Shown here: one piece after another, positions 169-19,834 of the stretch
How positions within the stretch are numbered: position 1 is the stretch's first letter
Layout: each line of letters opens with the position of its first letter
IMG/VR virus record: IMGVR_UViG_3300025133_000062
Length of the DNA stretch: 20,000 nucleotides
Source: an uncultured virus (IMG/VR IMGVR_UViG_3300025133_000062)
Lineage: Duplodnaviria > Heunggongvirae > Uroviricota > Caudoviricetes
Direction: 5' to 3' (one strand)
Translations under genes and position numbers: made by a program
Notes under the pieces: generated by a model
The model's input: only the letters and a program-made list of their open reading frames with translations
The model's database searches: none
What the model was told of the DNA's origin: nothing

Positions 169-226
169 AATATATCTCCTTTCAAGCAAGATATTATAGA
201 ACCCATTATTGGCATTCTATCTGTAT

Positions 227-255
227 AGTATACTATACTTTTAATAACTTGTCAA
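227..255 (-). promoter_or_regulatory. Sigma70-type promoter upstream of the sHSP gene
   Basis: TTGACA(255-250)-17 nt-TATACT(232-227). Confidence 0.75.
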
Positions 256-269
256 GCTTTTTTTAAATA

Positions 270-3809: not shown

Positions 3810-3812
3810 GAT

Positions 3813-3847
3813 AAAAAAGAGGGATGGCTGATTTCTCAACCACCCCT
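3813..3847 (-). terminator. Intrinsic terminator-like hairpin after SSB
   Basis: AGGGGTGGTTGA-GAAA-TCAGCCATCCCT followed by CTTTTTT. Confidence 0.7.
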
Positions 3848-3887
3848 AGTCTCCTTGTTAGATTAGTTAAATAGGATAGTTTTGTGA

Positions 3888-4355: not shown

Positions 4356-4447
4356 AACTTTTCTCCTTTTGATAATTTCATATGGTTAATAACAATAAAA
4401 TGGTGATCATTTAGTTTCGTAACTTTTCTCCTTTCATCATGGGTGTA

Positions 4448-4476
4448 AGTATAGCAGATAGAATTACATATGTCAA
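4448..4476 (-). promoter_or_regulatory. Sigma70-type promoter for SSB
   Basis: TTGACA(4476-4471)-17 nt-TATACT(4453-4448), with extended -10 TG. Confidence 0.75.
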
Positions 4477-4525
4477 GAACTATTTGTATCCTTTTCTAAA
4501 TAATTTAATGCCCTTTGATACTCCA

Positions 4526-6163: not shown

Positions 6164-6620
6164 AGGTCATATCCACTTGGTAAATTAAATCAGTACGAAC
6201 ATGAAAAAACTTTTCTCCTTTTGCTATATTTTTATTGTATGCTTCCTTGACTTCAGATTCAAGAAGCACATCTCCTGGAACATGCCATGCTCTTTTGAAG
6301 TCTCCTCTGAAAACAACAAAGGTTAAGTCAGCATTTCTAAAATCTTTCTGCCATTTATCCAGCAGTCTTTTCTTTCTGTAGGGAATGCGTAATTCTTTCC
6401 AACTCTCAGGCCAATCTCCTTTCCATCCCCACTTGACTTCAACTTCATAGAAGTGATTGCTGGAACTACTATCAAGATACCCTCTAATATCGAAGCCAAA
6501 GTTCTCTTTTGAATCAGTGATAAGATCAGGTATATTATGACCCAACCAACCCAGCATTTGTTTCTTTGCTGGCGTATCTGCTTTGTCATACTCATCTTTA
6601 CTGAAGGGTTTTCTTACCAT
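6144..6620 (-). CDS. Putative PD-(D/E)xK-fold nuclease
   Basis: FDI...YEVEVK motif; overlaps neighbouring genes. Confidence 0.55.
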   Translation of the reverse strand: MVRKPFSKDEYDKADTPAKKQMLGWLGHNIPDLITDSKENFGFDIRGYLDSSSSNHFYEVEVKWGWKGDWPESWKELRIPYRKKRLLDKWQKDFRNADLTFVVFRGDFKRAWHVPGDVLLESEVKEAYNKNIAKGEKFFHVRTDLIYQVDMTYDNSDS

Positions 6621-7140
6621 TTTCTAACTCCTTTGTTATTTTTTCATAGTGTTTTGCTACTGCCATAACTTGATTTACTGTAGCATCAGACATTATTCTA
6701 TTAGCTAAAGCAGATACAACTTGTACATTTCCTTTTATGTACCCCAGTTCAGGAATAATTCTATCTAAAGTTGGAGAGTGATCTGTTACACAAAAATCTC
6801 CTTTCTTCATAGTAATTCCTAAAGCTGGGCATTTGTTATCTTCAGGCCATATTTCTCTAAGATATTCTGTACTAAGATTAAAAGGAAGGTTCTTCTGTTT
6901 AGCTCTTACTTTACTTGTGCAACACATCCAGTGTTCTTTATTTTCTAAACGGTATTGTTTAGTATGTTTAAGTATTTTTTCTTTATTTTCTTGATAGTAT
7001 TTTTTATTTCGTTCCATCTGTTTTTCTTTATTTTCTAAACGGTATTTTTTATAATACTCAGTTCGTTTTTCTTTATTTTCTTGATAGTATTTTTTATAAT
7101 ACTCAGTTCGTTTTTCTGGATCTTTATGAGGCATCATCAT
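6598..7140 (-). CDS. HNH-like (beta-beta-alpha-Me) endonuclease with N-terminal tandem repeats
   Basis: CPALG...SPTLDRIIPELGYIKGNVQVVS..AN motif. Likely start in the MMM run at about 7140. Confidence 0.7.
   Translation of the reverse strand: MMMPHKDPEKRTEYYKKYYQENKEKRTEYYKKYRLENKEKQMERNKKYYQENKEKILKHTKQYRLENKEHWMCCTSKVRAKQKNLPFNLSTEYLREIWPEDNKCPALGITMKKGDFCVTDHSPTLDRIIPELGYIKGNVQVVSALANRIMSDATVNQVMAVAKHYEKITKELENGKKTLQ
6934..7113 (-). repeat. 4 x 45-bp (15-aa) intragenic tandem repeat
   Basis: KRTEYYKKYYQENKE / KRTEYYKKYRLENKE / KQMERNKKYYQENKE / KILKHTKQYRLENKE. Confidence 0.9.
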
Positions 7141-8746
7141 TCTCCATAAAAGGATTATCAATCTGGGTCATCCTACCAGTATTTTTATCATAGAAAAGAT
7201 AACACGCCACACCAGTGTCTCCAGTGTATCTGTTCTTGAGTATTCTTATTGTGGTTGTATTAGCTTCAGTTTCATCTTCAGCCTGTTGGTTTCTTTCCAG
7301 GGCTATGACACTATCAGATAGGTGCGCTATGCTGGCCGATCCTCTCAGGTGAGAGAGGGATACTTCCTTGCCATCCTCATGACCCCTATCACCTGATGGT
7401 CTGCGTAGGTGTGAAACAAGTAACAAGCCAACGCCAGTTTCTTCCACCAGAGATCTTAACTTGGTCATAAGAACATCAATAGACTTTCTTTCATCCCCAA
7501 ACTCTTCATTCCCTGACACCAGTATAGAGAGATGATCTAGGAAAATCCACTTACAATCTCTAGCTTTAGCCATGTACCTAACACGATCCAATATCTCATC
7601 GTTAGAAATTGAACCAAAGTGATCAAAGGCAAGGAACCTGCCAGAGCCAACGGTCTTATCCCGCCATTCTATTAGCTGTTTTCTGGTGTATTCTTCTCGT
7701 ACTTCTCTGATATAAAGTCTGGCATTGGCCTCGACACTCATAATATTAAAGGCTGTGTTCCTGGTGTTCTCTTCCATACATAACACACCAATGTTATCCT
7801 TAGTACTGTTCATGATATGATGCATAAGTTCTCTAATAATACTTGACTTGCCCATACCGGCACCGCTGGTAAAGCAGACTAGTTCCCCAGTTCTAATACC
7901 ATAGGTTTTATCATTCATTTTAGGCCAGGGATAAAGACAAGTCTCACAATAGTCTTCTTCAAACAATGCATCACCAAGGTCAGCTAGATTGATAATACCG
8001 GCAGGTGTATATGGTTTAGCATTCCACCATTCCTGCATAAACTTCTCACGTTTACCAACCTTTAGATACTCGTTTGGATCTTTAAGTTCTAGAGTTAAGA
8101 TTTTACATTTGTTGGGTTCAAAGATTTGAGCTACTGCTTGTGCCGCCTTCCTGCCTGGGTCATCGTTGTCAAAGCACAGAACTACGGTTTCAAATTGGTT
8201 AAGATAGTTAAAGGCTTTCTTACAGTTCTCAACTGCTGATGCGGCACCGTTCTTAATTGAAACAGTAGGGTACTTGCCATTCATCTGATAGACAGACATA
8301 GCATCAATCTCACCCTCACAGACTGTAACATATTTGCCACCACCAGAAAATATATTTTCACCAAATAAAACAGAGCCGCTTACATTCCCTTCAGACCAGA
8401 ATTTTTTACCTTGCACTTCTCTGATTTTATTAGCAACATGATTGCCGTTGTTGTCAAAATATTTATAGATGTGATGGGTAATTGTACTGCCAGATTTTGT
8501 TACTTCAACATTAAATGTTTTAATGGTTTCACGTTCTATGTGCCGATCACTAATGGCAGACACCTCACCGCTTGTTTTTAATAATCCAGAACTTTTTGTA
8601 TTAGTCATTGGTACCACCTTTGAATTATTATTAAAATTTGTTTCGCAACTAAAACAATAGGAGTGACCATCATCATACAAGGCATGGGCATCACTTGAGG
8701 TACAGCTAGGACATGGCCCCTTTGATATACATTTAGTATCACTCAT
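7124..8746 (-). CDS. Primase-helicase (T7 gp4-like)
   Basis: Zn finger CPSC..SDA...CFSC, TOPRIM CEGEIDA/FDND, Walker A SGAGMGKS, LDHL, LRGS, LKNR. Start ATG 8746 with SD AAAGGAGA. Confidence 0.95.
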   Translation of the reverse strand: MSDTKCISKGPCPSCTSSDAHALYDDGHSYCFSCETNFNNNSKVVPMTNTKSSGLLKTSGEVSAISDRHIERETIKTFNVEVTKSGSTITHHIYKYFDNNGNHVANKIREVQGKKFWSEGNVSGSVLFGENIFSGGGKYVTVCEGEIDAMSVYQMNGKYPTVSIKNGAASAVENCKKAFNYLNQFETVVLCFDNDDPGRKAAQAVAQIFEPNKCKILTLELKDPNEYLKVGKREKFMQEWWNAKPYTPAGIINLADLGDALFEEDYCETCLYPWPKMNDKTYGIRTGELVCFTSGAGMGKSSIIRELMHHIMNSTKDNIGVLCMEENTRNTAFNIMSVEANARLYIREVREEYTRKQLIEWRDKTVGSGRFLAFDHFGSISNDEILDRVRYMAKARDCKWIFLDHLSILVSGNEEFGDERKSIDVLMTKLRSLVEETGVGLLLVSHLRRPSGDRGHEDGKEVSLSHLRGSASIAHLSDSVIALERNQQAEDETEANTTTIRILKNRYTGDTGVACYLFYDKNTGRMTQIDNPFMENDDAS

Positions 8747-8763
8747 TAAAATCTCCTTTCGGT

Positions 8764-8840
8764 GATGTTGTCCACGGCCCAACATCTTGGCCTTAATATA
8801 CTATTTAGTTAGTTCGTAGAACTCACTAACTAAATAGTAT
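8764..8840 (-). repeat. Composite element copy 1: GA/GA-capped hairpin (8798-8840) plus pseudoknot (8764-8792)
   Basis: 16-bp perfect inverted repeat around GA-GT-TCT-AC-GA, then GGCC-AA-GATGTTG-GGCC-GTGGA-CAACATC. Confidence 0.85.
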
Positions 8841-8841
8841 T

Positions 8842-9048
8842 TTAGTGTTTTGGATTGCCAACATTTTTAATTTTTTGAATTTCATAAAGACTTTTAGGGT
8901 CGTTAGAGATGGAACCTGTGTGTCTCAAATGATTTGCTAACTGGGTTCGCCAAGCCACCTCTTCCTCCGCTTCCTTTCTGGTTTTAAAATCTTCTATAAT
9001 AATATTTGACAGTTTCTTTTTTAGAATAACTCTCCATCTAGACATCAC
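8842..9048 (-). CDS. Hypothetical protein
   Basis: In-operon ORF ending NPKH* directly against the hairpin. Confidence 0.6.
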   Translation of the reverse strand: MMSRWRVILKKKLSNIIIEDFKTRKEAEEEVAWRTQLANHLRHTGSISNDPKSLYEIQKIKNVGNPKH

Positions 9049-9223
9049 TATAAGTCTCCTCCCACAGGTTGTTTACAAAATCTTCTTTGTCTAACATAAT
9101 TTCATCAACCTCTCTCTTGGCTAATGATTTAGCCTCTCTGGGGTCATAACCTTCCTGAAGATATTGTTTTAATAAAAAATTAAAAGCCTGTCTCCGTTCC
9201 TTTCTCCACAAATTACTAGTCAT
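9038..9223 (-). CDS. Hypothetical protein
   Basis: Likely start MTSNLW at 9223, overlapping the upstream ORF end. Confidence 0.6.
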   Translation of the reverse strand: MTSNLWRKERRQAFNFLLKQYLQEGYDPREAKSLAKREVDEIMLDKEDFVNNLWEETYSDV

Positions 9224-9368
9224 TTTCAACCCATCCTTGATTTGCTTTTCTATAATCAAATTCAGATAATTTTTCTTTTAGTTTTTTATTTTCATCCCTT
9301 TCCTTTTCTAATTGTTGTTTTAAAATTTCAATATGTTTATGTAATCTTTCTTCTATAGTTTGTTTCAT
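9216..9368 (-). CDS. Small coiled-coil hypothetical protein (50 aa)
   Basis: Manual translation MKQTIEERLHKHIEILKQQLEKERDENKKLKRKLSEFDYRKANQGWVEND; fills the operon gap. Confidence 0.55.
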   Translation of the reverse strand: MKQTIEERLHKHIEILKQQLEKERDENKKLKEKLSEFDYRKANQGWVEND

Positions 9369-9383
9369 ATTATACCCCAAAAA

Positions 9384-9851
9384 TTAACGTGAGTCAACGT
9401 AAAATAAATGCCTACCCTTCTGCGTGATTAACTTAAATTGTTTTTTCATAGACCACATGGGTCTAACATAGGATGCATGGTAGTGAGTTGCCTTATTCAG
9501 AGATGCAATAGCAGCCCCGTCCCAAAGCATTTCTGCCAGTAGTATTATTCTAAAAAGAGATTTAATATTTTTATATTTTTCTGTCTTACCATCACACCAA
9601 TAGGAAAATTGGCATTTATTTCTGATAGGATTAGTCTTCCAGTAATACCCCTGATGGACTACCCTACAAATTGTATTGGGAAATCTTTTATGCTTTACTC
9701 TGTTTAAAATTATAGTACCGACCGCTAATACACCAATATCATTTTCAGATCTTGCCTCATGATATAATGCTTCAACCAAGCACTCAAACTCGTTTGCATT
9801 AGTAGGTCTAGTAAATAAAAAGATACTTACAATTACTAATAAATATTTCAA
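9384..9851 (-). CDS. Cell wall hydrolase, SleB/Hydrolase_2 family
   Basis: CL..ALYHEARSE, LNRV....FPNTIC.VV.Q, CQFSYWC, ATHYH, G.HLFY; hydrophobic N-terminus. Confidence 0.85.
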   Translation of the reverse strand: MKYLLVIVSIFLFTRPTNANEFECLVEALYHEARSENDIGVLAVGTIILNRVKHKRFPNTICRVVHQGYYWKTNPIRNKCQFSYWCDGKTEKYKNIKSLFRIILLAEMLWDGAAIASLNKATHYHASYVRPMWSMKKQFKLITQKGRHLFYVDSR

Positions 9852-10036
9852 TGTACCCTCGCAATTATTATGTCTGAATTAAATAATGATAGCGGATGGA
9901 TATCTATAGATTCCAGATAATGGTGCGCCTCTTGTTTAGTTTTAAAAGTTTTTACTTTGTGGCCGTTATCGTCAGGCAAAATATCTATACTAAAGATATC
10001 CATTGGGTCTTCGATATGAGCAATTACAAAAACCAC
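9848..10036 (-). CDS. Hypothetical protein
   Basis: In-operon ORF with ATGA overlap. Confidence 0.55.
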   Translation of the reverse strand: MVFVIAHIEDPMDIFSIDILPDDNGHKVKTFKTKQEAHHYLESIDIHPLSLFNSDIIIARVH

Positions 10037-10085
10037 AGCCAGAACCCCCCAAATAAACTTAATAATATTAACAATATATCCATTA

Positions 10086-10268
10086 TCAGTATCCTTTCTC
10101 TTCTTTTAACCATTCTTCTATAGTTTCCATAGTGTCAGTAGTTGACCTATCGAGATAGGACATTAACTCGGAAAACAACATTAATTCCTTCTCCGCTACC
10201 GTCATACTCTTGATTTTAGCATTAACGGCGTCTTGCATTAAGTAGTCTATTTTACTTCCCATAATCAT
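10086..10268 (-). CDS. Hypothetical protein
   Basis: In-operon ORF with ATGA overlap and SD GAGG. Confidence 0.55.
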   Translation of the reverse strand: MIMGSKIDYLMQDAVNAKIKSMTVAEKELMLFSELMSYLDRSTTDTMETIEEWLKEEKGY

Positions 10269-10636
10269 ATTACCTCTCTTAATTTTGCTGGGGTTGTACC
10301 ACCAACATTCTCTCTGAGAATATCAGAGTGTTTGAGTTCTGTCCAATAAATTTCCAGAGCTTCTGTCTCTTGGTGAGCTATGAATTTATGCATCTCACCT
10401 GCCGGTACGATAGACATATCACCAGCAAACAGATGGGTACTGTCGCATAGACCGTAGTCTTTCCATCTTTGTATCTCTAGCTCACCAGAGACTACATAGA
10501 AAGCATTTATTTTGGCCTGATGTTTATGTTGTGAACAATAACCGCCCAGTTCTACCTTGATGCGGTGTATTTCCACGGCAGGGGATTGGAGTAGAGGCTC
10601 TGTGCTACCCCAGACCTTACCTTCGATGACACTCAT
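10265..10636 (-). CDS. Cupin-domain protein
   Basis: KVWG, SQHKH..K...FYVVSG, GD...VPAGEMHKF cupin motifs. Confidence 0.8.
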   Translation of the reverse strand: MSVIEGKVWGSTEPLLQSPAVEIHRIKVELGGYCSQHKHQAKINAFYVVSGELEIQRWKDYGLCDSTHLFAGDMSIVPAGEMHKFIAHQETEALEIYWTELKHSDILRENVGGTTPAKLREVI

Positions 10637-10781
10637 TTACTTCTCCTTCCAACCAATCCCATATAGATTCATAGGCATGATCCCAATTTAAAAAGTCACC
10701 ATCTTTGACTGCTTCTGTTGCCATAATCTTTACTTGATTATCATCAGCTTCAGAGCAATCTAAATTTAATATAAACTGCAT
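10617..10781 (-). CDS. Hypothetical protein (54 aa)
   Basis: Manual translation MQFILNLDCSEADDNQVKIMATEAVKDGDFLNWDHAYESIWDWLEG...; SD GAGGAG. Confidence 0.5.
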   Translation of the reverse strand: MQFILNLDCSEADDNQVKIMATEAVKDGDFLNWDHAYESIWDWLEGEVNECHRR

Positions 10782-10904
10782 TTACTTCTCCTCTTGCAAT
10801 TTCTTAATTTTTATTAAGGTTTCTTGATACTGTCTTTGCAGATCAGCTACGTTCTTTTTCAGAATATCTATCTCATTCATAGCTTTCTTTTCTTCTTCAG
10901 TCAT
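10782..10904 (-). CDS. Small coiled-coil hypothetical protein (40 aa)
   Basis: Manual translation MTEEEKKAMNEIDILKKNVADLQRQYQETLIKIKKLQEEK. Confidence 0.5.
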   Translation of the reverse strand: MTEEEKKAMNEIDILKKNVADLQRQYQETLIKIKKLQEEK

Positions 10905-11121
10905 TTTCTGAAGTCTCTGCATTCTTTTTGTTTTTAGCATCAATGCTCCACTCACCATTAGCTTTGTATGCCCAAGATCCGTATAAGGTTAAGAATTTTC
11001 GACCCAGATCCATATTCTTATCCCATGCCCATTCCCTGGCTTTCTCCTCAGTCATCCCCATCTCCAGGGCTTCTTCATAGAAGTCTTCAAGCTGTGACAT
11101 TACTCTTGCGTCTATACTCAT
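10897..11121 (-). CDS. Hypothetical protein with mosaic C-terminus
   Basis: Likely start MSIDARV at 11121 (SD AAGGAG). The C-terminal part contains copies of 17271-17303 and of the SSB gene. Confidence 0.6.
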   Translation of the reverse strand: MSIDARVMSQLEDFYEEALEMGMTEEKAREWAWDKNMDLGRKFLTLYGSWAYKANGEWSIDAKNKKNAETSEND

Positions 11122-11423
11122 TTTAATCTCCTTAATACTTTCATGTACTGGGCGATGAGCCACTCACCACCCTGATTAGAGGGCCGTTTGAATGTAGTAT
11201 AGTCTTTAATTTCAACTACATACCAAGCTCTGTTACCACCCTGCTTCAGGTGAGGAGCATTAGGCTCTACTCCTGTGTGCCATCCTGGTCTGTGAGCAAA
11301 GCCTTTGGTGGGAATATCTTCTGCTGGTAGCCACTCACCAATAGGTATTCTCTGGCTGGCACCTATGAAGAGAGGGCCAATGCTGCCATCCCTTCGTTCC
11401 TTAAATAGTTTATAGGCAATCAT
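11118..11423 (-). CDS. Phage hypothetical protein
   Basis: In-operon 101-aa ORF (AYKLF..GPLFI..GFAHRPGWH..APHL..RP..QGG.W). Confidence 0.7.
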   Translation of the reverse strand: MIAYKLFKERRDGSIGPLFIGASQRIPIGEWLPAEDIPTKGFAHRPGWHTGVEPNAPHLKQGGNRAWYVVEIKDYTTFKRPSNQGGEWLIAQYMKVLRRLK

Positions 11424-11436
11424 CTGTCTGTCTCAT

Positions 11437-11646
11437 TCATAGCTGGTCTATCTCCTTCTCCAAAGCTTCAAGTTTTCTTATTATCTCCCTCCAATCATCA
11501 TAATAAATTTTCTTATGTAATAATGTTTCACTTGGTGCATACTTCACAGATGTATGTTTTATTTTATCTATACTTGACCATAGAAGACGTTTTATTAGAG
11601 GAAGTTTACCCATCTCATAGTTACCTCTAGTTGTTTGGGATGTCAT
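11437..11646 (-). CDS. Hypothetical protein
   Basis: In-operon ORF, SD GGAG. Confidence 0.55.
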   Translation of the reverse strand: MTSQTTRGNYEMGKLPLIKRLLWSSIDKIKHTSVKYAPSETLLHKKIYYDDWREIIRKLEALEKEIDQL

Positions 11647-11873
11647 AGTATTTCTCCATTAAAAGTATCTAACCTACCTGGTCCATTTCTTTCATGATAC
11701 TTTATCATAGCTCTCTCCATCACTTTCCATTGCTGCATCAAAAGTTTTTTCTTAGCATCTTTACCAAAAAGATGCACCCATTTTCGGCCCTTCTTGACAG
11801 TTACCTTGCGCCAACCAGAACCAATCCTGGGTGCTTCATCTTTAAAATATATTAAATGTTCTTTTGTTTTCAT
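11643..11873 (-). CDS. Hypothetical protein
   Basis: In-operon basic ORF. Confidence 0.6.
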   Translation of the reverse strand: MKTKEHLIYFKDEAPRIGSGWRKVTVKKGRKWVHLFGKDAKKKLLMQQWKVMERAMIKYHERNGPGRLDTFNGEIL

Positions 11874-11877
11874 TATA

Positions 11878-12825
11878 TTAAGCAGCCACCTGCGTCAATC
11901 CCAGCCAAGCATCAGAAGCCAGCATCTTTCTGACCCTGTCTTCTCTTGTTACTCTAACATTGTGGTTGCTACCTGTCTTGCTCTTAGGATGGCTAGACCA
12001 ATGGGTAGCGGCGTTGTATGCTGACCAGAGTGTACCAATACTTCGCTTGCTATAGCCTTCATAAGCACCTTTACCATGCAGATGCCGGTTCTCTTCATCA
12101 AAGATTTTCATTAGGTTGGAAAGCATAACCTTATTAGCAACCTTCTTTCTGCTAACATTATCAGTACGTTGTGCCAGAGTTTCAGTAAATAAATTGATAG
12201 CCTGATCTCTTGTGACCTTGGTATTATACCAATCCCTCATTTGATTCAGACCAGAGCCAGAGATAAACTCGCCAGCATTCTGTATCTTTCCGGCAAAGGC
12301 ACCCACGTTGAAATTCTTGGTGTGTCTGCCATAGACATAGGCCAGCTTGTCGCCAGATACTAAAGTATTATAACAGAAGCTACGCCACATCCCCATCATA
12401 CCATTGTTAGCCCATGTTCTGTTATGAGAAGTCCTGAACACAAACTCAGGTATTATTGGATCTTTGCCATCATCTTGCATAGCTACCTGATGAGCCGGAA
12501 ACCAAGCTCTTAACTCCAGCCTAGCACCATTATCATAGACACTAGTATTAAACCTAGCATCAGTCATATCCATTTGAGCAAGGTGAAGAGCCTCTTCCAC
12601 TCCCTCAACAATCTCACTGTACTGCACAGGTTGGTAGTCTGCGGAAACAATACCAAGTACTTCTTTAGTATCTTTTCTGCGGATACCCATTCCGATATTG
12701 GCAGGAATTGAGGCAGTTTCCTCCGGCCACGCAAAGGTGGTATGCTCCGGTCCGATTTTCGGACGCCAAGTATGGTTTAGTTCAATCTTCTCTACTTCAA
12801 AATCAATTTTATCTTTATCAAACAT
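11878..12825 (-). CDS. DUF932-like phage/plasmid protein
   Basis: R.DT..VLGIVS..Y.PVQ, SHN, R..C.N.L, RHT, GTLW.AYNA.T motifs. Confidence 0.7.
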   Translation of the reverse strand: MFDKDKIDFEVEKIELNHTWRPKIGPEHTTFAWPEETASIPANIGMGIRRKDTKEVLGIVSADYQPVQYSEIVEGVEEALHLAQMDMTDARFNTSVYDNGARLELRAWFPAHQVAMQDDGKDPIIPEFVFRTSHNRTWANNGMMGMWRSFCYNTLVSGDKLAYVYGRHTKNFNVGAFAGKIQNAGEFISGSGLNQMRDWYNTKVTRDQAINLFTETLAQRTDNVSRKKVANKVMLSNLMKIFDEENRHLHGKGAYEGYSKRSIGTLWSAYNAATHWSSHPKSKTGSNHNVRVTREDRVRKMLASDAWLGLTQVAA

Positions 12826-12844
12826 CGTATGTACCTCTCATTGT

Positions 12845-12929
12845 GCCAGCCGTCAAAGCCCGACCAGCTTGGCTTTAATTAATCATCTTAGTTAGTTCGT
12901 TAGTACTCACTAACTAAGATGATTAATTA
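12845..12929 (-). repeat. Composite element copy 2: hairpin (12876-12929) plus pseudoknot (12845-12874)
   Basis: 21-bp perfect inverted repeat around GA-GT-ACTA-AC-GA, then AGCC-AA-GCTGGTCG-GGCT-TTGA-CGGCTGGC. Confidence 0.8.
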
Positions 12930-13120
12930 TCATAAAAGTTTTCATAGCCCTCAGACAGGGATTTCATTTCAGACAGGAGCCAGCCATTGAGTTCATGTAT
13001 ATCAAGATCAGACCCACACATCTCTATAAATTCCTCAACCATAGGTCTACACCATGTGTCACCTTCCTGATTGAGAAATAGTTTTACATCTTCTATCGTT
13101 TCAAATGTTGGTAACTGCAT
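12923..13120 (-). CDS. Hypothetical protein
   Basis: SD AAGGAG; stop lies inside the hairpin arm. Confidence 0.6.
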   Translation of the reverse strand: MQLPTFETIEDVKLFLNQEGDTWCRPMVEEFIEMCGSDLDIHELNGWLLSEMKSLSEGYENFYDN

Positions 13121-13121
13121 T

Positions 13122-13364
13122 TTACTGCTCCTTTATCCCACAATAATCTTTAATAATAAATTCTCTGGCTACCTTCATTCCAGGCTCACCGTATTTATTA
13201 CTTATTTCTTTTAGGATTTCTGTCATAACCCATCCCCTTTTAATACTGGCTTTTCCTTTAACCATTAAAGCCAGTACATCCTCTGTAATATTATCAGTCA
13301 TAGCATTTCTCCTTATGTTTATCTTTACGCCGGTAACTGCCTCTGCCTTTCTTTGCAGCAACAA
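13122..13364 (-). CDS. Hypothetical protein (true start probably MTDNIT, about 13301)
   Basis: SD AAGGAGA before MTDNIT. Confidence 0.55.
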   Translation of the reverse strand: MLLQRKAEAVTGVKINIRRNAMTDNITEDVLALMVKGKASIKRGWVMTEILKEISNKYGEPGMKVAREFIIKDYCGIKEQ

Positions 13365-13536
13365 TCTGATTACTTAGTTTTCGTAACGTCCTCCAATAAG
13401 GAGAGCGTTTCTTAAAAAATCCCTTTTTATTTACCATAATATAAACACTCCATATACCAGAAAAAATAGAATAAGAAAAATGTTTGCGAAAATGAGAGCA
13501 AAAAATAATATATCTTTCATTGGTCAGTTCCTTAAT

Positions 13537-13565
13537 ATACTAGCATATCTATGCTAGTATGTCAA
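13537..13565 (-). promoter_or_regulatory. Sigma70-type promoter with a palindrome across the spacer
   Basis: TTGACA-tactagcatagatatgc(17)-TAGTAT, with extended -10 TG. Confidence 0.6.
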
Positions 13566-13707
13566 TAGTCGGTTGTTTAGTACCCAACCACTCATAGGTG
13601 AGTGGAGCTTTAAAGTTAAGCACCTTAAACATCTTTAGTTGGTCGTCTAATGTTTTGTAATTTGGTGTTGTAAAAACTATTTCATCTTTGTATTTTATTA
13701 TCCACAT
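13549..13707 (-). CDS. Hypothetical protein
   Basis: Start MWIIK at 13707 with SD AAAGGAGA. Confidence 0.55.
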   Translation of the reverse strand: MWIIKYKDEIVFTTPNYKTLDDQLKMFKVLNFKAPLTYEWLGTKQPTIDILA

Positions 13708-13760
13708 TTTATTTCTCCTTTCACGGTTAATGTATATCATATTTAAATAATAAAGTCAAT

Positions 13761-13928
13761 CTACAAAAACCCCTTAGTTAAAGATTTTAGTTCGTTGAAT
13801 ACCATTTCAAACCTTGGATTGTTTTTATTTCTACTAGCTAAATTTCTTAACAGCCATCTAATATTAGAAGGATTGTCCAAATCTTTCCGACTCTCAGGTA
13901 CATCAAAATCTTTTAAATTAATGGTCAT
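13761..13928 (-). CDS. Hypothetical protein
   Basis: Start MTINLK at 13928 with SD AGGAGA. Confidence 0.6.
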   Translation of the reverse strand: MTINLKDFDVPESRKDLDNPSNIRWLLRNLASRNKNNPRFEMVFNELKSLTKGFL

Positions 13929-13939
13929 TTTATTTCTCC

Positions 13940-13985
13940 TAAAAAAGTACTGTAACAGGATCAACTCTAACCCTGTTACAGTACT
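13940..13985 (-). terminator. Terminator-like long hairpin
   Basis: AGTACTGTAACAGGGTTA-GAGT-TGATCCTGTTACAGTACT followed by a T-run. Confidence 0.55.
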
Positions 13986-13992
13986 ATCAAGG

Positions 13993-14178
13993 TTAGAGCG
14001 ACAGGACCGGCATAGATTTCTCACCAAATCTTTTCGGCGGGTAGAACATTTCTATATATAGTGACCGCTTTCTAAAATGTATACCCAGAAAGCTATCGCC
14101 TACTGAAAAGCCGTACCTGTTTTTGTTCTTGCGAATTTCTTTACTACCAAATACACCTGTCTTATTAATTATCTGCAT
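13993..14178 (-). CDS. Hypothetical protein
   Basis: SD AGGAGA; basic 61-aa ORF. Confidence 0.6.
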   Translation of the reverse strand: MQIINKTGVFGSKEIRKNKNRYGFSVGDSFLGIHFRKRSLYIEMFYPPKRFGEKSMPVLSL

Positions 14179-14193
14179 GTTGCTTCTCCTATT

Positions 14194-14424
14194 CTATGGT
14201 TGGTAAAACACTGTTGAATTTGCTTCCATTTTAAATTTAATAGTTTTTTCTATATCATGGAGTGCTTGTAGCTTGAATTCAGGCTTTATGTATTCTTGTT
14301 GAATTAATGTATCTACAAGAGCCATTGATAATCCAATTGCTGTTAGACAATCAGGATATTCCTGTTCAGGTTCTTCAGGATTGTTTTCTCGACGTTCAAT
14401 GTCGAGATCACTCATTCGCCCCAT
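14194..14424 (-). CDS. Hypothetical protein
   Basis: Likely start MGRMSD at 14424 after AAAGGA. Confidence 0.6.
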   Translation of the reverse strand: MGRMSDLDIERRENNPEEPEQEYPDCLTAIGLSMALVDTLIQQEYIKPEFKLQALHDIEKTIKFKMEANSTVFYQP

Positions 14425-14445
14425 TTTCCATTTCCTTTCTAGAAT

Positions 14446-14528
14446 AATGTTGACATGGCCCAACATCTTGGCCTCTTAATATACTATTTAGTTAGTTCGT
14501 TAGTACTCACTAACTAAATAGTGTATTA
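14446..14528 (-). repeat. Composite element copy 3: hairpin (14477-14528) plus pseudoknot (14446-14473)
   Basis: 20-bp inverted repeat (1 mismatch) around GA-GT-ACTA-AC-GA, then GGCC-AA-GATGTTG-GGCC-ATGT-CAACATT. Confidence 0.85.
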
Positions 14529-15158
14529 GTGTTTTGGGTAACTCACATTTTTAATTCTTTTATCCCAACAGGCACGGCATAGACCGCAAGCATTGCCTCT
14601 AATCCTAGCCTTGCATTCAAAGCCCAGCGGCTCACTATTCCGGTGAACAGTACTGGTATTTTTAAATGCTTTAGACGGTTTGCCATCTATCATGGGTGCC
14701 GATACCCTGACAATCAGGTTGGCTGGCAAAGTATTAGTCTTTAAATACTTTGTATAGATACTATACTCTTTTGTAGGTAGCCAGTGTTTTACTTTGGGTG
14801 TTTGTCTAGCTACCTCTGCTATTGCTAATAGCATTTCCATTGACTGTAAATCACCAGAATCAAACCATCTATGATAGCCATCGGCAGCGTATCTTTTAAT
14901 CTGAAAGACCATAGCATCTATCCAGTTGCTGGTATTAGAAACCTTCCACTTGAATAGATTCTTTTTATATCCTTTGTCTACGCTGGGACGTAGGTTCTGG
15001 AGTCTTCTCATATTACACTGCTCACAGATAGAACCCTCTACCTTTTCAAGTTTTGATCCTGTCAGACAAGCAAAGGCATCCACGGCATAGGTAGTTCCAG
15101 GCATCTTTGTATTGCCTAGACTTATCTTGCCGTATTCTTGGCTTTCTTTTACTAGCAT
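14526..15158 (-). CDS. GP88-like Cys-rich phage protein
   Basis: KMPG, C..GSKL....GS.C..C, RWFDSGD, HWLPTKE, PANL.VRVS, C...C..CRACW, VSY..H. Confidence 0.65.
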   Translation of the reverse strand: MLVKESQEYGKISLGNTKMPGTTYAVDAFACLTGSKLEKVEGSICEQCNMRRLQNLRPSVDKGYKKNLFKWKVSNTSNWIDAMVFQIKRYAADGYHRWFDSGDLQSMEMLLAIAEVARQTPKVKHWLPTKEYSIYTKYLKTNTLPANLIVRVSAPMIDGKPSKAFKNTSTVHRNSEPLGFECKARIRGNACGLCRACWDKRIKNVSYPKH

Positions 15159-15170
15159 TTTACTTCCTTT

Positions 15171-15320
15171 CTATAGTAAACTAAGTGATGCCGGGAACAC
15201 AGTGTCTGTTCTGTTGATTTTCTTTTTACTTTGCCAAACCCGCCTTTTGAAAAAATATATTGTTATTATTCTATATTTTATTCCCCGGTGCCGTTCAAGG
15301 TGTCGTCTGTACATAATCAT
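15171..15320 (-). CDS. Small basic hypothetical protein (49 aa)
   Basis: Manual translation MIMYRRHLERHRGIKYRIITIYFFKRRVW...; SD AAAGGAGA. Confidence 0.5.
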   Translation of the reverse strand: MIMYRRHLERHRGIKYRIITIYFFKRRVWQSKKKINRTDTVFPASLSLL

Positions 15321-15350
15321 TTCACTTCTCCTTTCTTTCAAAATAATCTC

Positions 15351-15394
15351 TTAATGAAGTAGCCCAGATTAATTAATCTGAGCTACTCTGTTAA
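15351..15394 (-). repeat. Second-family intergenic hairpin (B2)
   Basis: TTAACAGAGTAGCT-CAGATTAATTAATCTG-GGCTACT; shares arms with 16631-16679. Confidence 0.65.
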
Positions 15395-15403
15395 AAGATT
15401 AAG

Positions 15404-15619
15404 TTAAGCGGCTTTGTGATCAAAATCTTCAGGCACATTTTCTTTATTCTTTATGACCGGGCTAACCTTTCCAGAGGGGTGTTTAATCCAGATCGGAAAT
15501 CCACTTTCAAGAGCTTTATCATAAGCTTTCCTGTCGCCTTCCTCTGTGTGTTGGAGATTATAGACTTTATTTTTATTCGTATTGAGTGCAACAAATTGAA
15601 CTTCTTTGCGATTTGACAT
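15404..15619 (-). CDS. Hypothetical protein
   Basis: Start MSNRKE at 15619 with SD AAAGGA. Confidence 0.6.
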   Translation of the reverse strand: MSNRKEVQFVALNTNKNKVYNLQHTEEGDRKAYDKALESGFPIWIKHPSGKVSPVIKNKENVPEDFDHKAA

Positions 15620-15631
15620 AATATTATGTCC

Positions 15632-15730
15632 TTTCCTTATGTTGGTATCATGGGCTACCAACTTGCCCTTCTTAATTAAGTTATTTAGTTAGTTCGTTAA
15701 TACTCACTAACTAAATAACTTATTAAACTA
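15632..15730 (-). repeat. 99-bp direct repeat = composite element copy 4 (hairpin 15677-15722, pseudoknot 15641-15668)
   Basis: Identical to 15981-16079; GGGC-AA-GTTGGTA-GCCC-ATGA-TACCAAC. Confidence 0.9.
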
Positions 15731-15897
15731 ACTAAATAACTGGCAATTGAATTCTCAAATTTGCGATAATTTCTATATAATTTATTCTTAAAGTAATCAA
15801 AGTTCCCTTCGGAATACATATACATCCAGTTATCAGGTTCATCTAGACCTTTATTTATTGCATTAATAAAAGCCTGTTTTGGATCGCTTGTATACAT
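15697..15897 (-). CDS. Hypothetical protein
   Basis: SD AGGAGG; C-terminus SLISYLVSEY is encoded by the repeat. Confidence 0.6.
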   Translation of the reverse strand: MYTSDPKQAFINAINKGLDEPDNWMYMYSEGNFDYFKNKLYRNYRKFENSIASYLVSLISYLVSEY

Positions 15898-15974
15898 TAG
15901 AAACCTCCTATGATCAAGACAAACAAAAGAAAAATCAAGTTGCTAATAAATAACAAAGTATTTAGTATTAGCAT
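15897..15974 (-). CDS. Tiny hydrophobic peptide (25 aa)
   Basis: MLILNTLLFISNLIFLLFVLIIGGF; SD AAGGA; TAATG coupling to the next ORF. Confidence 0.45.
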   Translation of the reverse strand: MLILNTLLFISNLIFLLFVLIIGGF

Positions 15975-15980
15975 TTTATA

Positions 15981-16079
15981 TTTCCTTATGTTGGTATCAT
16001 GGGCTACCAACTTGCCCTTCTTAATTAAGTTATTTAGTTAGTTCGTTAATACTCACTAACTAAATAACTTATTAAACTA
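15981..16079 (-). repeat. 99-bp direct repeat = composite element copy 5 (hairpin 16026-16071, pseudoknot 15990-16017)
   Basis: Identical to 15632-15730. Confidence 0.9.
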
Positions 16080-16448: not shown

Positions 16449-16630
16449 AGCATAGTCTCCTTTGTTAATTAAAAGCCGCCTTTAATAAGTGTGTAGTCGC
16501 AGGTCTACTCGCCCCTTGGCCTCACATCGGCTCAACTATACATTGATCTATGAGGTTGCACCCTCTCCATCCATGCTGCCACATAGACATAGTAGGGAGG
16601 GTCACTATGCCGCTGTTTTTGTGGTAAAAT

Positions 16631-16679
16631 TTAATTAATCGAGTAGCCTGGAAAGTATCCAAGCTACTCTGTTAATTAA
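16631..16679 (-). repeat. Second-family intergenic hairpin (B1)
   Basis: TTAATTAA-CA-GAGTAGCTTGGA-TACTT-TCCAGGCTACTC-GA-TTAATTAA; overlaps the stop of the upstream ORF. Confidence 0.7.
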
Positions 16680-16864
16680 ACTGCACGACCTTTGGCAGGA
16701 ACGCCATCAGGCAGTTTTTCGGCATTGGCAACGGTAAAGAAAGAGCCGTTGGGGTGAAAAACAGCAACGGGAATACCGGCATCGGCCTTGGCACGGAATG
16801 CTGTTACCTTGCCCATAGTGCGCCACTTGCCGTCTTTTGTAAAAGATTTAAAAGTTTTTGTCAT
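16676..16864 (-). CDS. Hypothetical protein
   Basis: SD AGGAGA. Confidence 0.65.
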   Translation of the reverse strand: MTKTFKSFTKDGKWRTMGKVTAFRAKADAGIPVAVFHPNGSFFTVANAEKLPDGVPAKGRAV

Positions 16865-17236: not shown

Positions 17237-17276
17237 GGATCTCAGGGAGTTCGTAAGAACTCACTCCCTGAGATCC
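17237..17276 (-). repeat. GA/GA-capped hairpin copy 6 (GC-richer stem)
   Basis: GGATCTCAGGGAGT-GA-GT-TCTT-AC-GA-ACTCCCTGAGATCC. Confidence 0.85.
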
Positions 17277-17446: not shown

Positions 17447-17470
17447 AGCAAATTCTCCAAAAAATTAAGT

Positions 17471-17521
17471 TAATTAATCACTCTGTACTTTCACTTTGTT
17501 CAAGTACAGAGTTATTAATTA
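17471..17521 (-). repeat. Divergent GA/GA-capped hairpin (copy 9)
   Basis: TAATTAATAACTCTGTACTT-GA-AC-AAA-GT-GA-AAGTACAGAGTGATTAATTA; same fold with the apical pairs swapped. Confidence 0.7.
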
Positions 17522-17648: not shown

Positions 17649-17690
17649 ATTAATTTAGTTAGTTCGTAAGAACTCACTAACTAAATTAAT
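17649..17690 (-). repeat. GA/GA-capped hairpin copy 7
   Basis: 15-bp inverted repeat around GA-GT-TCTT-AC-GA. Confidence 0.85.
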
Positions 17691-17928: not shown

Positions 17929-17968
17929 GGATCTCAGGGAGTTCGTAAGAACTCACTCCTTGAGATCC
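17929..17968 (-). repeat. GA/GA-capped hairpin copy 8
   Basis: 17925-17970 matches 17233-17278 with 1 mismatch. Confidence 0.85.
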
Positions 17969-18105
17969 GTTTAACCCCTCAGAAATCCGGGGAAAATCCT
18001 CGCATCACGTGGGGGGGCGGGCGAAAAAACCGGCGCATGTATATATATATAAAACAGACCTCTCAAATAATTTCAAAAATCTATGGATCTATCATCAAAA
18101 GTGCC

Positions 18106-18293
18106 ATTAGTAACATATTAATATAATTAACTATATTATTTTTTATTATTTTTTTATATTTTACTATTGCATAATTAAATATTATAGTGTATAATATATA
18201 TTAGTAACATATTAATATAATTAACTACATTATTTTTTATTATTTTTTTATATTTTACTATTGCATAATTAAATATTATAGTGTATAATATAT
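18106..18293 (+). repeat. 2 x 94-bp AT-rich tandem duplication, each unit containing a sigma70-type promoter
   Basis: Units 18106-18199 and 18200-18293 (1 mismatch). TTGCAT-17-TATAAT at 18167-18195 and 18261-18289. Confidence 0.85.
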
Positions 18294-18295
18294 AT

Positions 18296-19834
18296 ATGAA
18301 TAATCTAGAAGATACTCCACTAAATTCTTTTATTAATCTTAAAGAACTATTATCATATAAAGTTAACAGGGAATCAAAGGCAGACTTTCTTACATTTGTC
18401 CGTCTAATGGCTCCTTCTCTTGTGTCTGATTTTAAAATGGGAAGACATATAGAGATTATTTCTAACAAACTAAAAGAATTAGAAGAAGGAAAGACTAAAC
18501 GGTTGATGGTCTTTCTTCCACCCCGTTCCAGCAAGTCTGTAATTTGTTCAAAACTGTTTCCAGCATGGTATATAGGAAGAAATCCAGAACATGAAATTCT
18601 CACTGTTTCTCATAGTGATCAGCTTTCTTCTGACTTTGGTCGTTCTGTCAGGGATATTGTAAATACTGAAGAATTTCAGAAGATATTCAGTGGTGTTAAG
18701 TTAAGAAGCGATGTCAGGGCTGCTGGTAAGTGGAAGACTAATCAGAATGGTACTTATTATGCAGCGGGAGTTAGGTCACAGATAGCAGGACGGGGAGCGC
18801 ATGTAGCAATACTTGATGATGTAATGTCTGAAGAGGATTCCTACTCAGATGCGGGTAGAAGGTATATTAAAGAATGGTATCCAGCAGGACTTAGAACTCG
18901 TATTATGCCTAATGGGTCTATAGTTATTATTAATACCAGATATCATTATGATGATCTATGCGGCTGGCTACTCAAACAACAAGAAAATATGTCTGAATAT
19001 GAAACAATTCCCTGGGATGTTATTAAAATACCGGCATGGCTGGATGAGGAAGCTTCTGATTTACTTGGTCTGCCTGTAGGTTCCAGTTACTTCCCCGAAT
19101 GGAAACCGGATGATGTCTTACATACTGATGAGAATGAGATCAAGGCTAGTAATGGAAGCCGGTACTGGAACTCTCTCTACATGCAAGATCCTACTCCAGA
19201 GGAAGGGGGATTAATAAAAAAGAAATGGCTGCAATACTGGGAAGATCCAGACCCTCCTGAATGTGACTTTGTTATCCAGACTTTTGATACAGCCTTCTCT
19301 ACCAGAACTACAGCAGACTTCAGTGTGATTCAGACCTGGGGCATCTTCTATCTCTATGATCATGATGAGAGAGGACATGAAAGCTATGCGCCCCATCTGA
19401 TTCTGCTGGGTAACATCAAAGGCAGGTTTGAATACCCGGAACTTAGAAAACTGGCGCAGAAGCTTTATAATGAACACAGACCGGATGTATGTATGATAGA
19501 AAAGAAAGCCAGCGGTCAGTCTCTCATACAGGATATGCGTAGGGCTGGGTTGCCGGTCATGGAATATAATCCAGACAGGGATAAGGTATCCAGAGTTTAT
19601 GCGGCTTCGCCTATTCTGGAAGCGGGTAGACTATGGATACCCAGAGGTAAGAAATGGTCGGATGATCTTATAGAAGAATTAATAAGGTTCCCTAATGCGG
19701 CTCATGATGATCAGGTGGATGCTCTGACAATGGCGGTACACTACATGAAAGAGTCCTGGCACCTTACCCATCCTGATGATCCTGAGTTTGAAGATGAACC
19801 CAGAACAGAGAAAAGTACATACTGGACTTTCTGA
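18296..19834 (+). CDS. terL: Terminase large subunit
   Basis: MVFLPPRSSKS (Walker A-like), GRGA..AILDD (Walker B), TR.H.DDL.G, YMQ.P, FDTA, IEKKASG and HDDQVDA nuclease motifs. Likely ATG 18296. Confidence 0.93.
   Translation: MNNLEDTPLNSFINLKELLSYKVNRESKADFLTFVRLMAPSLVSDFKMGRHIEIISNKLKELEEGKTKRLMVFLPPRSSKSVICSKLFPAWYIGRNPEHEILTVSHSDQLSSDFGRSVRDIVNTEEFQKIFSGVKLRSDVRAAGKWKTNQNGTYYAAGVRSQIAGRGAHVAILDDVMSEEDSYSDAGRRYIKEWYPAGLRTRIMPNGSIVIINTRYHYDDLCGWLLKQQENMSEYETIPWDVIKIPAWLDEEASDLLGLPVGSSYFPEWKPDDVLHTDENEIKASNGSRYWNSLYMQDPTPEEGGLIKKKWLQYWEDPDPPECDFVIQTFDTAFSTRTTADFSVIQTWGIFYLYDHDERGHESYAPHLILLGNIKGRFEYPELRKLAQKLYNEHRPDVCMIEKKASGQSLIQDMRRAGLPVMEYNPDRDKVSRVYAASPILEAGRLWIPRGKKWSDDLIEELIRFPNAAHDDQVDALTMAVHYMKESWHLTHPDDPEFEDEPRTEKSTYWTF

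What the first reader, a model, noticed from the sequence alone, without database searches (positions are those of the whole stretch)
8764..16017. Covarying compact H-type pseudoknot between hairpin and Shine-Dalgarno in five leaders
Seen (minus strand, S1-L1-S2-S1'-L3-S2'): GGCC-AA-GATGTTG-GGCC-GTGGA-CAACATC (8764-8792); AGCC-AA-GCTGGTCG-GGCT-TTGA-CGGCTGGC (12845-12874); GGCC-AA-GATGTTG-GGCC-ATGT-CAACATT (14446-14473); GGGC-AA-GTTGGTA-GCCC-ATGA-TACCAAC (15641-15668 and 15990-16017). Both stems covary, L1 is always AA, L3 is NTG-like, and the non-Watson-Crick pairs are G.U only on the sense strand. Each lies a few nt downstream of a GA/GA hairpin and just upstream of an SD, including that of primase-helicase. 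Established: a 1-2 nt L1 across a ~7-bp S2 with no L2 is the classic H-type geometry of the T2/T4 gene 32 translational operator. Inference: hairpin + pseudoknot + SD form a portable ~100-nt expression module, for example a cleavage site followed by an exonuclease-blocking 5' structure, or an operator bound by a phage protein such as the SSB.
Basis: partly seen in the sequence, partly recalled or inferred. Interest (0 to 1): 0.85.

Follow-up and report, generated by a model that had tools for sequence, protein, structure and literature searches.

The report
Mobile pseudoknot leader cassette in phage
Five gene leaders of this uncultured marine phage carry a small, genuinely conserved RNA pseudoknot between a long hairpin and the ribosome-binding site, and the whole unit is copied from gene to gene like a portable expression cassette whose exact job is still untested.

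Summary
All five sites sit at the stated minus-strand coordinates. Each lies 5-10 nt after a long hairpin and 2-9 nt before a Shine-Dalgarno core.

Using the hairpin alone as anchor, I recovered 24 distinct relatives of the 28-31-nt element from viral and metagenome contigs. On 20 of them, 217 of 220 cells pair, and 8 of 11 pairs change on both sides, including 3 of 4 in the short stem S1. The covariation score is 0.633, against 0.233 for shuffles (0 of 500 reach it) and at most 0.122 for slid controls. The three remaining rows pair in 36 of 36 cells. All 21 G.U cells work only on the sense strand, so this is RNA.

Rfam 15 has no matching family.

Hairpin, pseudoknot and SD behave as a sporadic copy-paste cassette. 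It is absent at the same positions in relatives at 90% identity or less. The primase copy is a paralogue that even carries the coding tail of another gene.

The function is inferred only. My best guess is a fold-dependent shield or insulator for the downstream cistron. A gene-32-type SSB operator is disfavoured.

The parts
8764..8792 (-). Pseudoknot copy 1 (type A, 5-nt L3), leader of the primase-helicase
   Evidence: (43.5 bits)
12845..12874 (-). Pseudoknot copy 2 (type B, 8-bp S2 with three G.U pairs), leader of the 315-aa phrog_1221 gene
   Evidence: (34.3 bits)
14446..14473 (-). Pseudoknot copy 3 (type A), leader of a small ORF that probably starts at 14424
   Evidence: (39.4 bits)
15641..15668 (-). 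Pseudoknot copy 4 (type C), leader of a 71-aa ORF (AUG 15619-15617)
   Evidence: 48.2 bits
15990..16017 (-). Pseudoknot copy 5 (type C, identical core to copy 4), leader of a 25-aa hydrophobic mini-ORF (AUG 15974-15972)
   Evidence: (48.2 bits)
8798..8840 (-). Upstream hairpin 1: 16-bp lower stem, tandem G.A/A.G loop, 2-bp cap, 3-nt loop
12876..12929 (-). Upstream hairpin 2 (21-bp lower stem)
14477..14528 (-). Upstream hairpin 3
15671..15727 (-). Upstream hairpin 4
16020..16076 (-). Upstream hairpin 5
17655..17684 (-). Core of a hairpin of the same kind that runs straight into an SD, with no pseudoknot
17237..17276 (-). Hairpin with the same apex but a different, covarying stem; no pseudoknot
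17929..17968 (-). Hairpin with the same apex, upstream of the sigma-70-like early promoters; no pseudoknot
8744..8763 (-). SD and AUG of the primase-helicase, directly after pseudoknot 1
12823..12844 (-). SD and AUG of the 315-aa gene, directly after pseudoknot 2
8841..8876 (-). Coding tail of the upstream ORF. It is paralogous to the end of the 210-aa gene (about 14529-14565) and was copied along with the cassette

Best explanation
What it is (shown). The five sites belong to an uncatalogued family of compact H-type RNA pseudoknots.
- Geometry: S1 of 4-5 bp, L1 of 1-3 nt, S2 of 6-8 bp, no L2, and L3 of 3-6 nt. The two stems can stack into 11-13 bp.
- They form in the sense-strand leader RNA of early and middle genes in a narrow clade of uncultured marine podophage-like viruses with a T7-type replication module.
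- Each lies between a long intergenic hairpin and the SD.
- Hairpin, pseudoknot and SD move together as a copy-paste cassette. The cassette replaces tight stop/start coupling with an independent initiation region.

How it works (inferred). The element acts in cis through its fold rather than its sequence. After processing at or near the upstream hairpin, it would be the first stable structure on the downstream message. There it would shield the message from 5'-end-dependent decay, and keep the SD, which starts a few nucleotides later, from pairing with upstream RNA.

My odds: real pseudoknot RNA about 0.85-0.9; mobile cassette about 0.8; the shield/insulator mechanism about 0.35.
For: Structure:
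- On 20 distinct sequences, 217 of 220 cells pair. 8 of 11 pairs change on both sides (S1 3 of 4, S2 5 of 7).
- Covariation score 0.633, against a shuffle mean of 0.233 (0 of 500 reach it) and slid controls of at most 0.122.
- A first alignment with the three type-B rows one column out of register still gave 96.4%. Aligned on their own, those rows pair in 36 of 36 cells, with an A-U outer S1 pair.
- G.U intermediates sit beside the full compensations: 21 G.U cells in all.

Leaders of one and the same gene swap S1 pairs and S2 pairs while keeping the fold. 8 of 8 leaders of the small gene downstream of copy 4 that were recovered by the hairpin anchor carry the element.

A test that looks for S2 first: of 174 hairpin-downstream contexts, 74 have an S2-like hairpin and 28 of those also have S1. 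A control with the upstream bases shuffled gave a mean of 1.96 and a maximum of 7.

Position: the SD core is 2-9 nt and the AUG 14-21 nt after the element (read).

Cassette behaviour:
- Upstream of the primase gene it is absent in 25 of the 26 representative relatives shown.
- Upstream of the 315-aa gene it is absent in 62 of 63 distinct contexts.
- In those relatives the genes abut or overlap.
- The primase cassette aligns with the cassette after the 210-aa gene, including about 35 nt of coding tail.

Loops vary in length and letters, which fits a fold-based role. S1-only and S2-only folds have similar predicted energies and do not exclude each other.
Against: - No RNA evidence at all: no transcript ends, no probing, no half-lives.
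- Cleavage at the hairpin is assumed by analogy with T7 RNase III sites, which I recalled and did not test.
- If a cut falls in the hairpin stem, some 15-25 single-stranded nucleotides would still precede the pseudoknot. That is a poor shield against a 5'-end sensor.
- Three of the 8 hairpins in the window, and most in other phages, lack the pseudoknot. It is therefore not needed for whatever the hairpin does.
- The sequences are related by descent, so counts of covarying cells overstate the number of independent events (the tool's own caveat).
- Family members were first picked with a descriptor that demands pairing. lessen this bias but do not remove it.
- ViennaRNA cannot fold pseudoknots, so no pseudoknot energy was computed.
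Confidence: 0.4

Rival explanations
1. A protein-binding translational operator. A phage RNA-binding protein (the gp2.5-like SSB or another) recognises the pseudoknot and represses a small regulon of middle genes by blocking the adjacent ribosome-binding site, as gp32 does on its own mRNA.
For: - Same size and placement as the T4/RB69 gene 32 pseudoknot: about 28 nt on the 5' side of the SD (passages of PMC535899).
- Several unrelated genes share the element, as a regulon would.
- L1 is mostly two adenines, and one 4-nt L3 recurs in types A and C.
Against: - It is not in front of the SSB gene. That leader was read, and the model found no hit anywhere in window 1-8700.
- Only 14-21 nt separate the pseudoknot from the AUG. 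The gene-32 operator needs an unstructured tract of more than 40 nt with repeated A/U motifs.
- Loop letters and lengths differ between types.
- The element comes and goes between near relatives that keep the same proteins.
Confidence: 0.2
2. There is no pseudoknot. The two stems are alternative hairpins (a two-state switch), or only S2 forms and S1 complementarity is carried along by paralogy.
For: - Predicted energies of S1-only (-3.3 to -6.8 kcal/mol) and S2-only (-5.5 to -10.9 kcal/mol) are close, and nested folding picks one or the other.
- S1 is only 4-5 bp.
- Many sequences are close relatives.
Against: - The stems share no nucleotides, so nothing forces a choice between them.
- S1 shows changes on both sides in 3 of 4 pairs, plus an A-U outer pair in type B, with G.U intermediates.
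- The extended S1 that type B could form is broken in its closest relative.
- The loop lengths fit the H-type geometry (established knowledge, recalled).
Confidence: 0.12
3. A DNA-level element. The repeated cassette serves as a recombination or shuffling site or as a promoter, and the RNA fold is incidental.
For: - Cassettes mark insertion/deletion boundaries between relatives and have been duplicated with flanking coding sequence.
- Three metagenome loci fuse the hairpin and the first bases of the element directly to coding sequence of the 210-aa gene.
- PeSL cassettes of T4-type phages set a precedent (PMC2839356 and PMC4122927; search listing and first lines of the abstracts only).
Against: - 21 G.U cells would be A.C mismatches on the other strand.
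- Compensatory change has no value for a homology-driven recombination site.
- Sigma-70-like sites are not enriched (34 found against 29.7 +/- 5.6 in shuffles), and none is shared by types A, B and C.
- The shuffling role and the RNA role can coexist.
Confidence: 0.08

Closest known systems
Translational operator pseudoknot of T4/T2/RB69 gene 32 mRNA
   Same: A compact pseudoknot of about 28 nt on the 5' side of the SD in a phage mRNA (PMC535899 passages). One short loop crosses a roughly 7-bp stem (recalled from the T2 NMR literature, not read here).
   Different: The gene-32 operator also needs an adjacent unstructured tract of more than 40 nt with A/U repeats, and it sits on the SSB's own message. 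Here the tract is 14-21 nt and the SSB gene lacks the element. There are five copies on unrelated genes, and they are mobile.
PeSL (promoter-early stem-loop) mobile regulatory cassettes of T4-type phages
   Same: Short repeated intergenic cassettes with a stem-loop. They lie at the borders of genes that differ between close relatives (titles and abstract openings of PMC2839356 and PMC4122927).
   Different: PeSLs are promoter-terminator composites. This cassette shows no shared promoter. It carries a covarying pseudoknot and its own SD, and it occurs in T7-like rather than T4-like genomes.
RNase III processing hairpins between early genes of phage T7 (recalled, no paper read)
   Same: Long intergenic hairpins with an internal loop, in the polycistronic early RNA of a phage with a T7-type replication module. 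Predicted lower stems are 14-21 bp.
   Different: Cleavage is untested. The apex is strongly conserved across many phages, which RNase III would not require. T7 sites are not followed by a pseudoknot, as far as I recall.
Autoregulatory pseudoknots in ribosomal-protein mRNAs (S15, S4, L20)
   Same: Pseudoknots at ribosome-binding regions that control initiation (L20: listing of PMC1888825; S15 and S4 recalled).
   Different: Those pseudoknots include or trap the SD/AUG, and each is specific to one operon. Here the SD lies outside the fold and the element is multi-copy.
Synthetic leader insulators of the RiboJ type (recalled)
   Same: The same logic: a processing element followed by a stable structure just upstream of the SD, which makes expression independent of upstream context.
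   Different: RiboJ uses a self-cleaving ribozyme and a simple hairpin. No ribozyme was detected here.

Membership tests
H-type RNA pseudoknot (structural class) | Two helices in crossing topology, each supported by covariation | tested here: met
   S1 98.8% and S2 98.6% of cells paired; changes on both sides in 3 of 4 and 5 of 7 pairs; type B pairs in 36 of 36 cells.
H-type RNA pseudoknot (structural class) | Loop lengths able to span the grooves (a short L1 over 6-8 bp of S2, L3 over 4-5 bp of S1, L2 absent) | tested here: met
   L1 is 1-3 nt, L3 is 3-6 nt and L2 is 0 in all 24 variants. That these lengths are feasible is recalled knowledge.
H-type RNA pseudoknot (structural class) | Both helices physically form at the same time | not testable with these tools
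   No pseudoknot-capable folding program and no probing data. Nested folding gives only S1 or S2.
Gene-32-type autogenous operator | A pseudoknot of about 28 nt at the 5' end of the operator | tested here: met
   28-31 nt; definition.
Gene-32-type autogenous operator | An adjacent unstructured region of more than 40 nt with repeated A/U motifs that includes the RBS | tested here: not met
   Only 14-21 nt from the pseudoknot to the AUG (read).
Gene-32-type autogenous operator | Located on the mRNA of the SSB gene itself | tested here: not met
   The leader of the gp2.5-like SSB gene (3888-4355) has no such element. The model found no hit in window 1-8700.
Gene-32-type autogenous operator | Specific binding by the SSB | not testable with these tools
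   Needs a binding assay.
PeSL cassette | An early sigma-70 promoter inside the cassette | tested here: not met
   Only weak 9-of-12 matches inside type C, none shared by types A and B, and no enrichment over shuffles.
PeSL cassette | Repeated stem-loop cassette at the borders of variable genes | tested here: met
Any Rfam 15 family | Covariance-model match | tested here: not met
   Window: 0 matches at E<=1. 16 related loci: only sub-threshold matches unrelated to the element.
Small pseudoknot riboswitch (preQ1-I-like) | Invariant ligand-pocket nucleotides in the loops, and the SD drawn into the fold | tested here: not met
   Loops vary in length and letters. The SD lies 2-9 nt outside the fold.
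RNase III site (the upstream hairpin) | About two turns of double-stranded RNA | tested here: met
   Predicted lower stems of 14-21 bp, plus the capped apex.
RNase III site (the upstream hairpin) | Cleavage by RNase III | not testable with these tools
   No RNA run was listed.

The most novel reading that the evidence does not exclude
The unit is a natural, mobile 'cut-and-shield' expression cassette. It would combine a protein- or RNase-recognised hairpin, a nuclease-resistant pseudoknot that becomes the 5' cap-like structure of the downstream message, and a private SD. Phages would paste it in front of genes to uncouple them from upstream translation and to set their lifetime. That would make it a natural counterpart of synthetic leader insulators and a new functional class of bacterial-virus pseudoknot.
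Probability: 0.3. Interest if true: 0.8.

Novelty: new variant of a known kind. Interest (0 to 1): 0.62.

Why it matters
Well-supported pseudoknots in bacterial and phage leaders are few. Most of them are single-operon protein operators or riboswitches. This one is different in several ways:
- It is a small multi-copy family whose fold is conserved while its sequence is free.
- It has no Rfam entry.
- It is tied to a widespread phage hairpin.
- It is caught in the act of being copied between genes.

If the shield/insulator reading is right, it would show how phages without their own RNA polymerase give individual cistrons their own stability and initiation context. It would also offer a compact natural part, about 100 nt long, for insulating gene expression.

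Even if the function proves different, the family is a clean test case for pseudoknot prediction, and a marker of modular exchange in abundant marine phages.

Tried and rejected
- **Rfam.** Nothing for the window or for 16 related loci.
- **Named phages.** Megablast and blastn found no match. By protein, the nearest cultured phage is Pelagibacter phage HTVC115P, at only 49%.
- **Own assembly.** Not held. The nearest record is a 7-kb fragment.
- **RNA evidence.** No RNA holder was listed by the look-up of sequencing runs.
- **Earlier scan notes.** Nothing for this genome or this sequence. The word search returned only loosely analogous cassettes.
- **Literature.** An exact-string search for the hairpin apex found 0 papers. 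That covers only the held library.
- **Promoter reading.** Rejected.
- **L3 as a start codon** (the 'NTG-like' idea). Rejected because several relatives lack it.
- **Extended 8-bp S1 in type B.** Rejected because the closest relative breaks it.
- **A distal segment complementary to the hairpin apex**, as seen in a bacterial repeat. None in the window.
- **Model search for pseudoknots away from leaders.** None found in 1.2 Mb of relatives. The weak hits in L150 and L170 lie in coding sequence.
- **Scripted table of spacings.** The tool did not run it, so I read the spacings by eye. They are approximate.
- **Pseudoknot-aware folding.** Not available.


Full report
**Setting**

The window is the early/middle region of an uncultured marine podophage-like virus and is read on the minus strand. 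PHROG matches:
- primase-helicase (7124-8746; phrog_239, E 1.8e-183)
- family A DNA polymerase (4526-6163)
- gp2.5-like SSB (3888-4355)
- a Cas4-like exonuclease
- an endonuclease
- ribonucleotide reductase
- a terminase large subunit on the plus strand (18281-19834)

No RNA polymerase gene lies in the window. Sigma-70-like promoters open the region near 17866 and 17718. The nearest cultured phage, by primase protein, is Pelagibacter phage HTVC115P at 49%. DNA searches of named phages found nothing.

**The observation**

Each follows a long hairpin whose apex has a tandem G.A/A.G internal loop, a 2-bp cap and a 3-4-nt loop. The window has eight such hairpins:
- Six share one stem sequence.
- Two share a different, fully covarying stem.
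- Three of the eight run straight to an SD or promoter region with no pseudoknot.

Each pseudoknot ends 2-9 nt before the SD core and 14-21 nt before the AUG. I read these distances by eye, so they are approximate.

One result tells against over-reading. A degenerate 12-mer of the 5' half is not significant by itself (5 hits, and 17 of 200 shuffles reach 5). The full two-stem descriptor is rare. It gave 34 hits in 1.40 Mb (both strands), 14 of them from this family. A relaxed form gave 86 distinct strings in 2.61 Mb, of which about 22 belong to the family.

**Relatives**

To avoid selecting on the pseudoknot, I searched with the hairpin apex only.
- IMG/VR gave 79 stretches. Many have no stem and look like chance matches. 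Others are true hairpins with quite different, covarying stems in many phage contigs.

Most true hairpins are followed directly by an SD. A subset is followed by the element.

Three further variants came from a covariance model and from orthologous leaders. They follow other kinds of hairpin.

In all I have 24 distinct sequences. I labelled them A to F. They differ in almost every stem position.

**Covariation**

| Alignment | Rows | Cells paired | Pairs changed on both sides | Covariation score |
|---|---|---|---|---|
| A3, counted | 20, without type B | 217 of 220 | 8 of 11 (S1 3 of 4, S2 5 of 7) | 0.633 |
| A1, counted | 20, with the three type B rows one column out of register | 96.4% | 7 of 11 | 0.598 |
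| A4, counted | type B only, 3 | 36 of 36 | 0 | 0.056 |

- For A3, the shuffle mean was 0.233 (0 of 500 shuffles reach the observed score), and partners slid by 1-3 columns scored at most 0.122.
- Type B has an A-U outer S1 pair, so every S1 pair shows a compensated alternative somewhere in the family.
- G.U intermediates accompany the full swaps. The 21 G.U cells would be A.C mismatches on the other strand, so the selected molecule is the sense RNA.
- The three unpaired cells are two rows with a 6-bp S2 and one row whose S1 is shifted by one base.

Leaders of one and the same small gene give the cleanest case. All 8 recovered by the hairpin anchor carry the element, and among them one S1 pair flips and an S2 pair changes on both sides.

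A test that finds an S2-like hairpin first and only then asks for S1 gave 28 of 74 contexts with S1. With the upstream bases shuffled, the mean was 1.96 and the maximum 7. Five family members were scored negative there only because the script chose another register.

Caveats:
- The rows are related by descent.
- They were first assembled with a descriptor that demands pairing.
- No pseudoknot-aware energy could be computed. Nested folding gives S1-only at -3.3 to -6.8 kcal/mol and S2-only at -5.5 to -10.9 kcal/mol.

**Cassette behaviour**

*Primase gene.* Only the four near-identical contigs carry the cassette upstream of primase. I picked 26 representative relatives from the 76 shown to cover the distinct contexts. 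Their upstream regions:

| Upstream of primase | Relatives |
|---|---|
| Hairpin plus pseudoknot | 1 |
| Variant hairpin only | 5 |
| Neither (upstream gene abuts or overlaps the start) | 20 |

*315-aa gene.* Only 1 of 63 distinct upstream contexts (from 73 loci) has the cassette.

*Small gene at 13993-14178.* The full-length homologues fall into 5 distinct contexts. Four carry a pseudoknot of type A or type F. One is tightly coupled to the upstream gene.

*Copying within the genome.* The primase cassette aligns with the cassette behind the 210-aa gene, including about 35 nt of that gene's coding tail. The same segment aligns at 86% with a cassette at another locus of a related contig. Copies 4 and 5 belong to two long cassette repeats (hairpin plus pseudoknot) that lie about 350 nt apart.

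*Recombination junction.* Three metagenome loci join the hairpin and the first bases of the element directly to internal coding sequence of the 210-aa gene. That looks like a recombination junction.

**What it is not**

- Not an Rfam family.
- Not a shared promoter.
- Not a start codon in L3, because several relatives lack it.
- Probably not a riboswitch of the small-pseudoknot type. The loops vary, and the SD lies outside the fold.
- Not a gene-32-type operator, whose defining features I took from passages of PMC535899: a pseudoknot of about 28 nt, an unstructured A/U-repeat tract of more than 40 nt including the RBS, on the SSB's own message. Only the first is met.

**Mechanism**

Shown:
- a sense-strand RNA fold under selection;
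- a position immediately 5' of the SD;
- co-mobility with a hairpin and an SD;
- replacement of stop/start coupling by a free-standing initiation region.

Inferred: the fold acts in cis and independently of sequence. Most likely it is the first stable structure on the downstream message once the hairpin region has been processed. It would protect the message and keep the SD free. I give this about 0.35.

The analogy with T7 RNase III sites and with 5' stem-loops that stabilise mRNA is recalled knowledge, not tested here.

Rivals:

| Reading | Odds |
|---|---|
| Protein operator | 0.2 |
| Two alternative hairpins, or S2 only | 0.12 |
| Purely DNA-level shuffling site or promoter | 0.08 |

The shuffling role, as in the PeSL cassettes of T4-type phages, can coexist with an RNA function. 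For PMC2839356 and PMC4122927 I saw only the search listing and the first lines of the abstracts.

**Verdict**

- The functional proposals remain untested, and the SSB-operator version is disfavoured.
- It is a new variant of a known kind: a leader pseudoknot combined with a mobile intergenic cassette.
- Interest is moderate to high.

Noticed in passing
window 18107-18300: Two tandem copies of an AT-rich repeat of about 95 nt lie between the terminase gene and the early region. They are followed, on the minus strand, by a short GC-rich tract near 17990-18040. This may be a genome end, a packaging region or an origin region.
   Followed up: no
window 16630-16690, 15350-15400, 17470-17520 (minus strand): A second family of intergenic hairpins with related stems, flanked by AT-rich palindromic spacers and lacking a T-run. 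In L208 (about 990-1020) a hairpin of this kind, rather than the G.A/A.G kind, precedes a pseudoknot.
   Followed up: partly
window 13537-13565 (minus strand): A sigma-70-like promoter (10 of 12 matches, with TG) embedded in a perfect hairpin. The only strong intrinsic terminator of the region is at 13946-13985.
   Followed up: no
L382, L383, L370, L372 and other loci: The same hairpin apex occurs in a repeated element of gut Melainabacteria genomes. One MAG has 14 stretches and the complete MEL.A1 chromosome has 2. There, a segment about 70 nt downstream is complementary to both apex halves. No such segment exists in the window.
   Followed up: partly
L360, L350, L320: The hairpin plus the first bases of the pseudoknot are fused directly to internal coding sequence of the 210-aa gene homologue. 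This looks like a recombination junction at the 5' edge of the element.
   Followed up: no
window 15897-15974 (minus strand): Pseudoknot copy 5 drives a 25-codon, strongly hydrophobic mini-ORF. Its stop overlaps the start of the next 66-aa ORF.
   Followed up: no
L090, L091, L150, L152, L159 (upstream of primase); L187, L181, L395: Variant hairpins at the same intergenic positions. One kind has a 4-nt purine-rich bulge on the 5' side. Another has a single A.G mismatch in place of the tandem pair. This suggests a wider hairpin superfamily.
   Followed up: partly
window 7124-8785: The mechanical ORF of the primase-helicase starts at an ATG inside pseudoknot 1. The SD and the relatives place the real start at 8746, 13 codons downstream.
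   Followed up: yes
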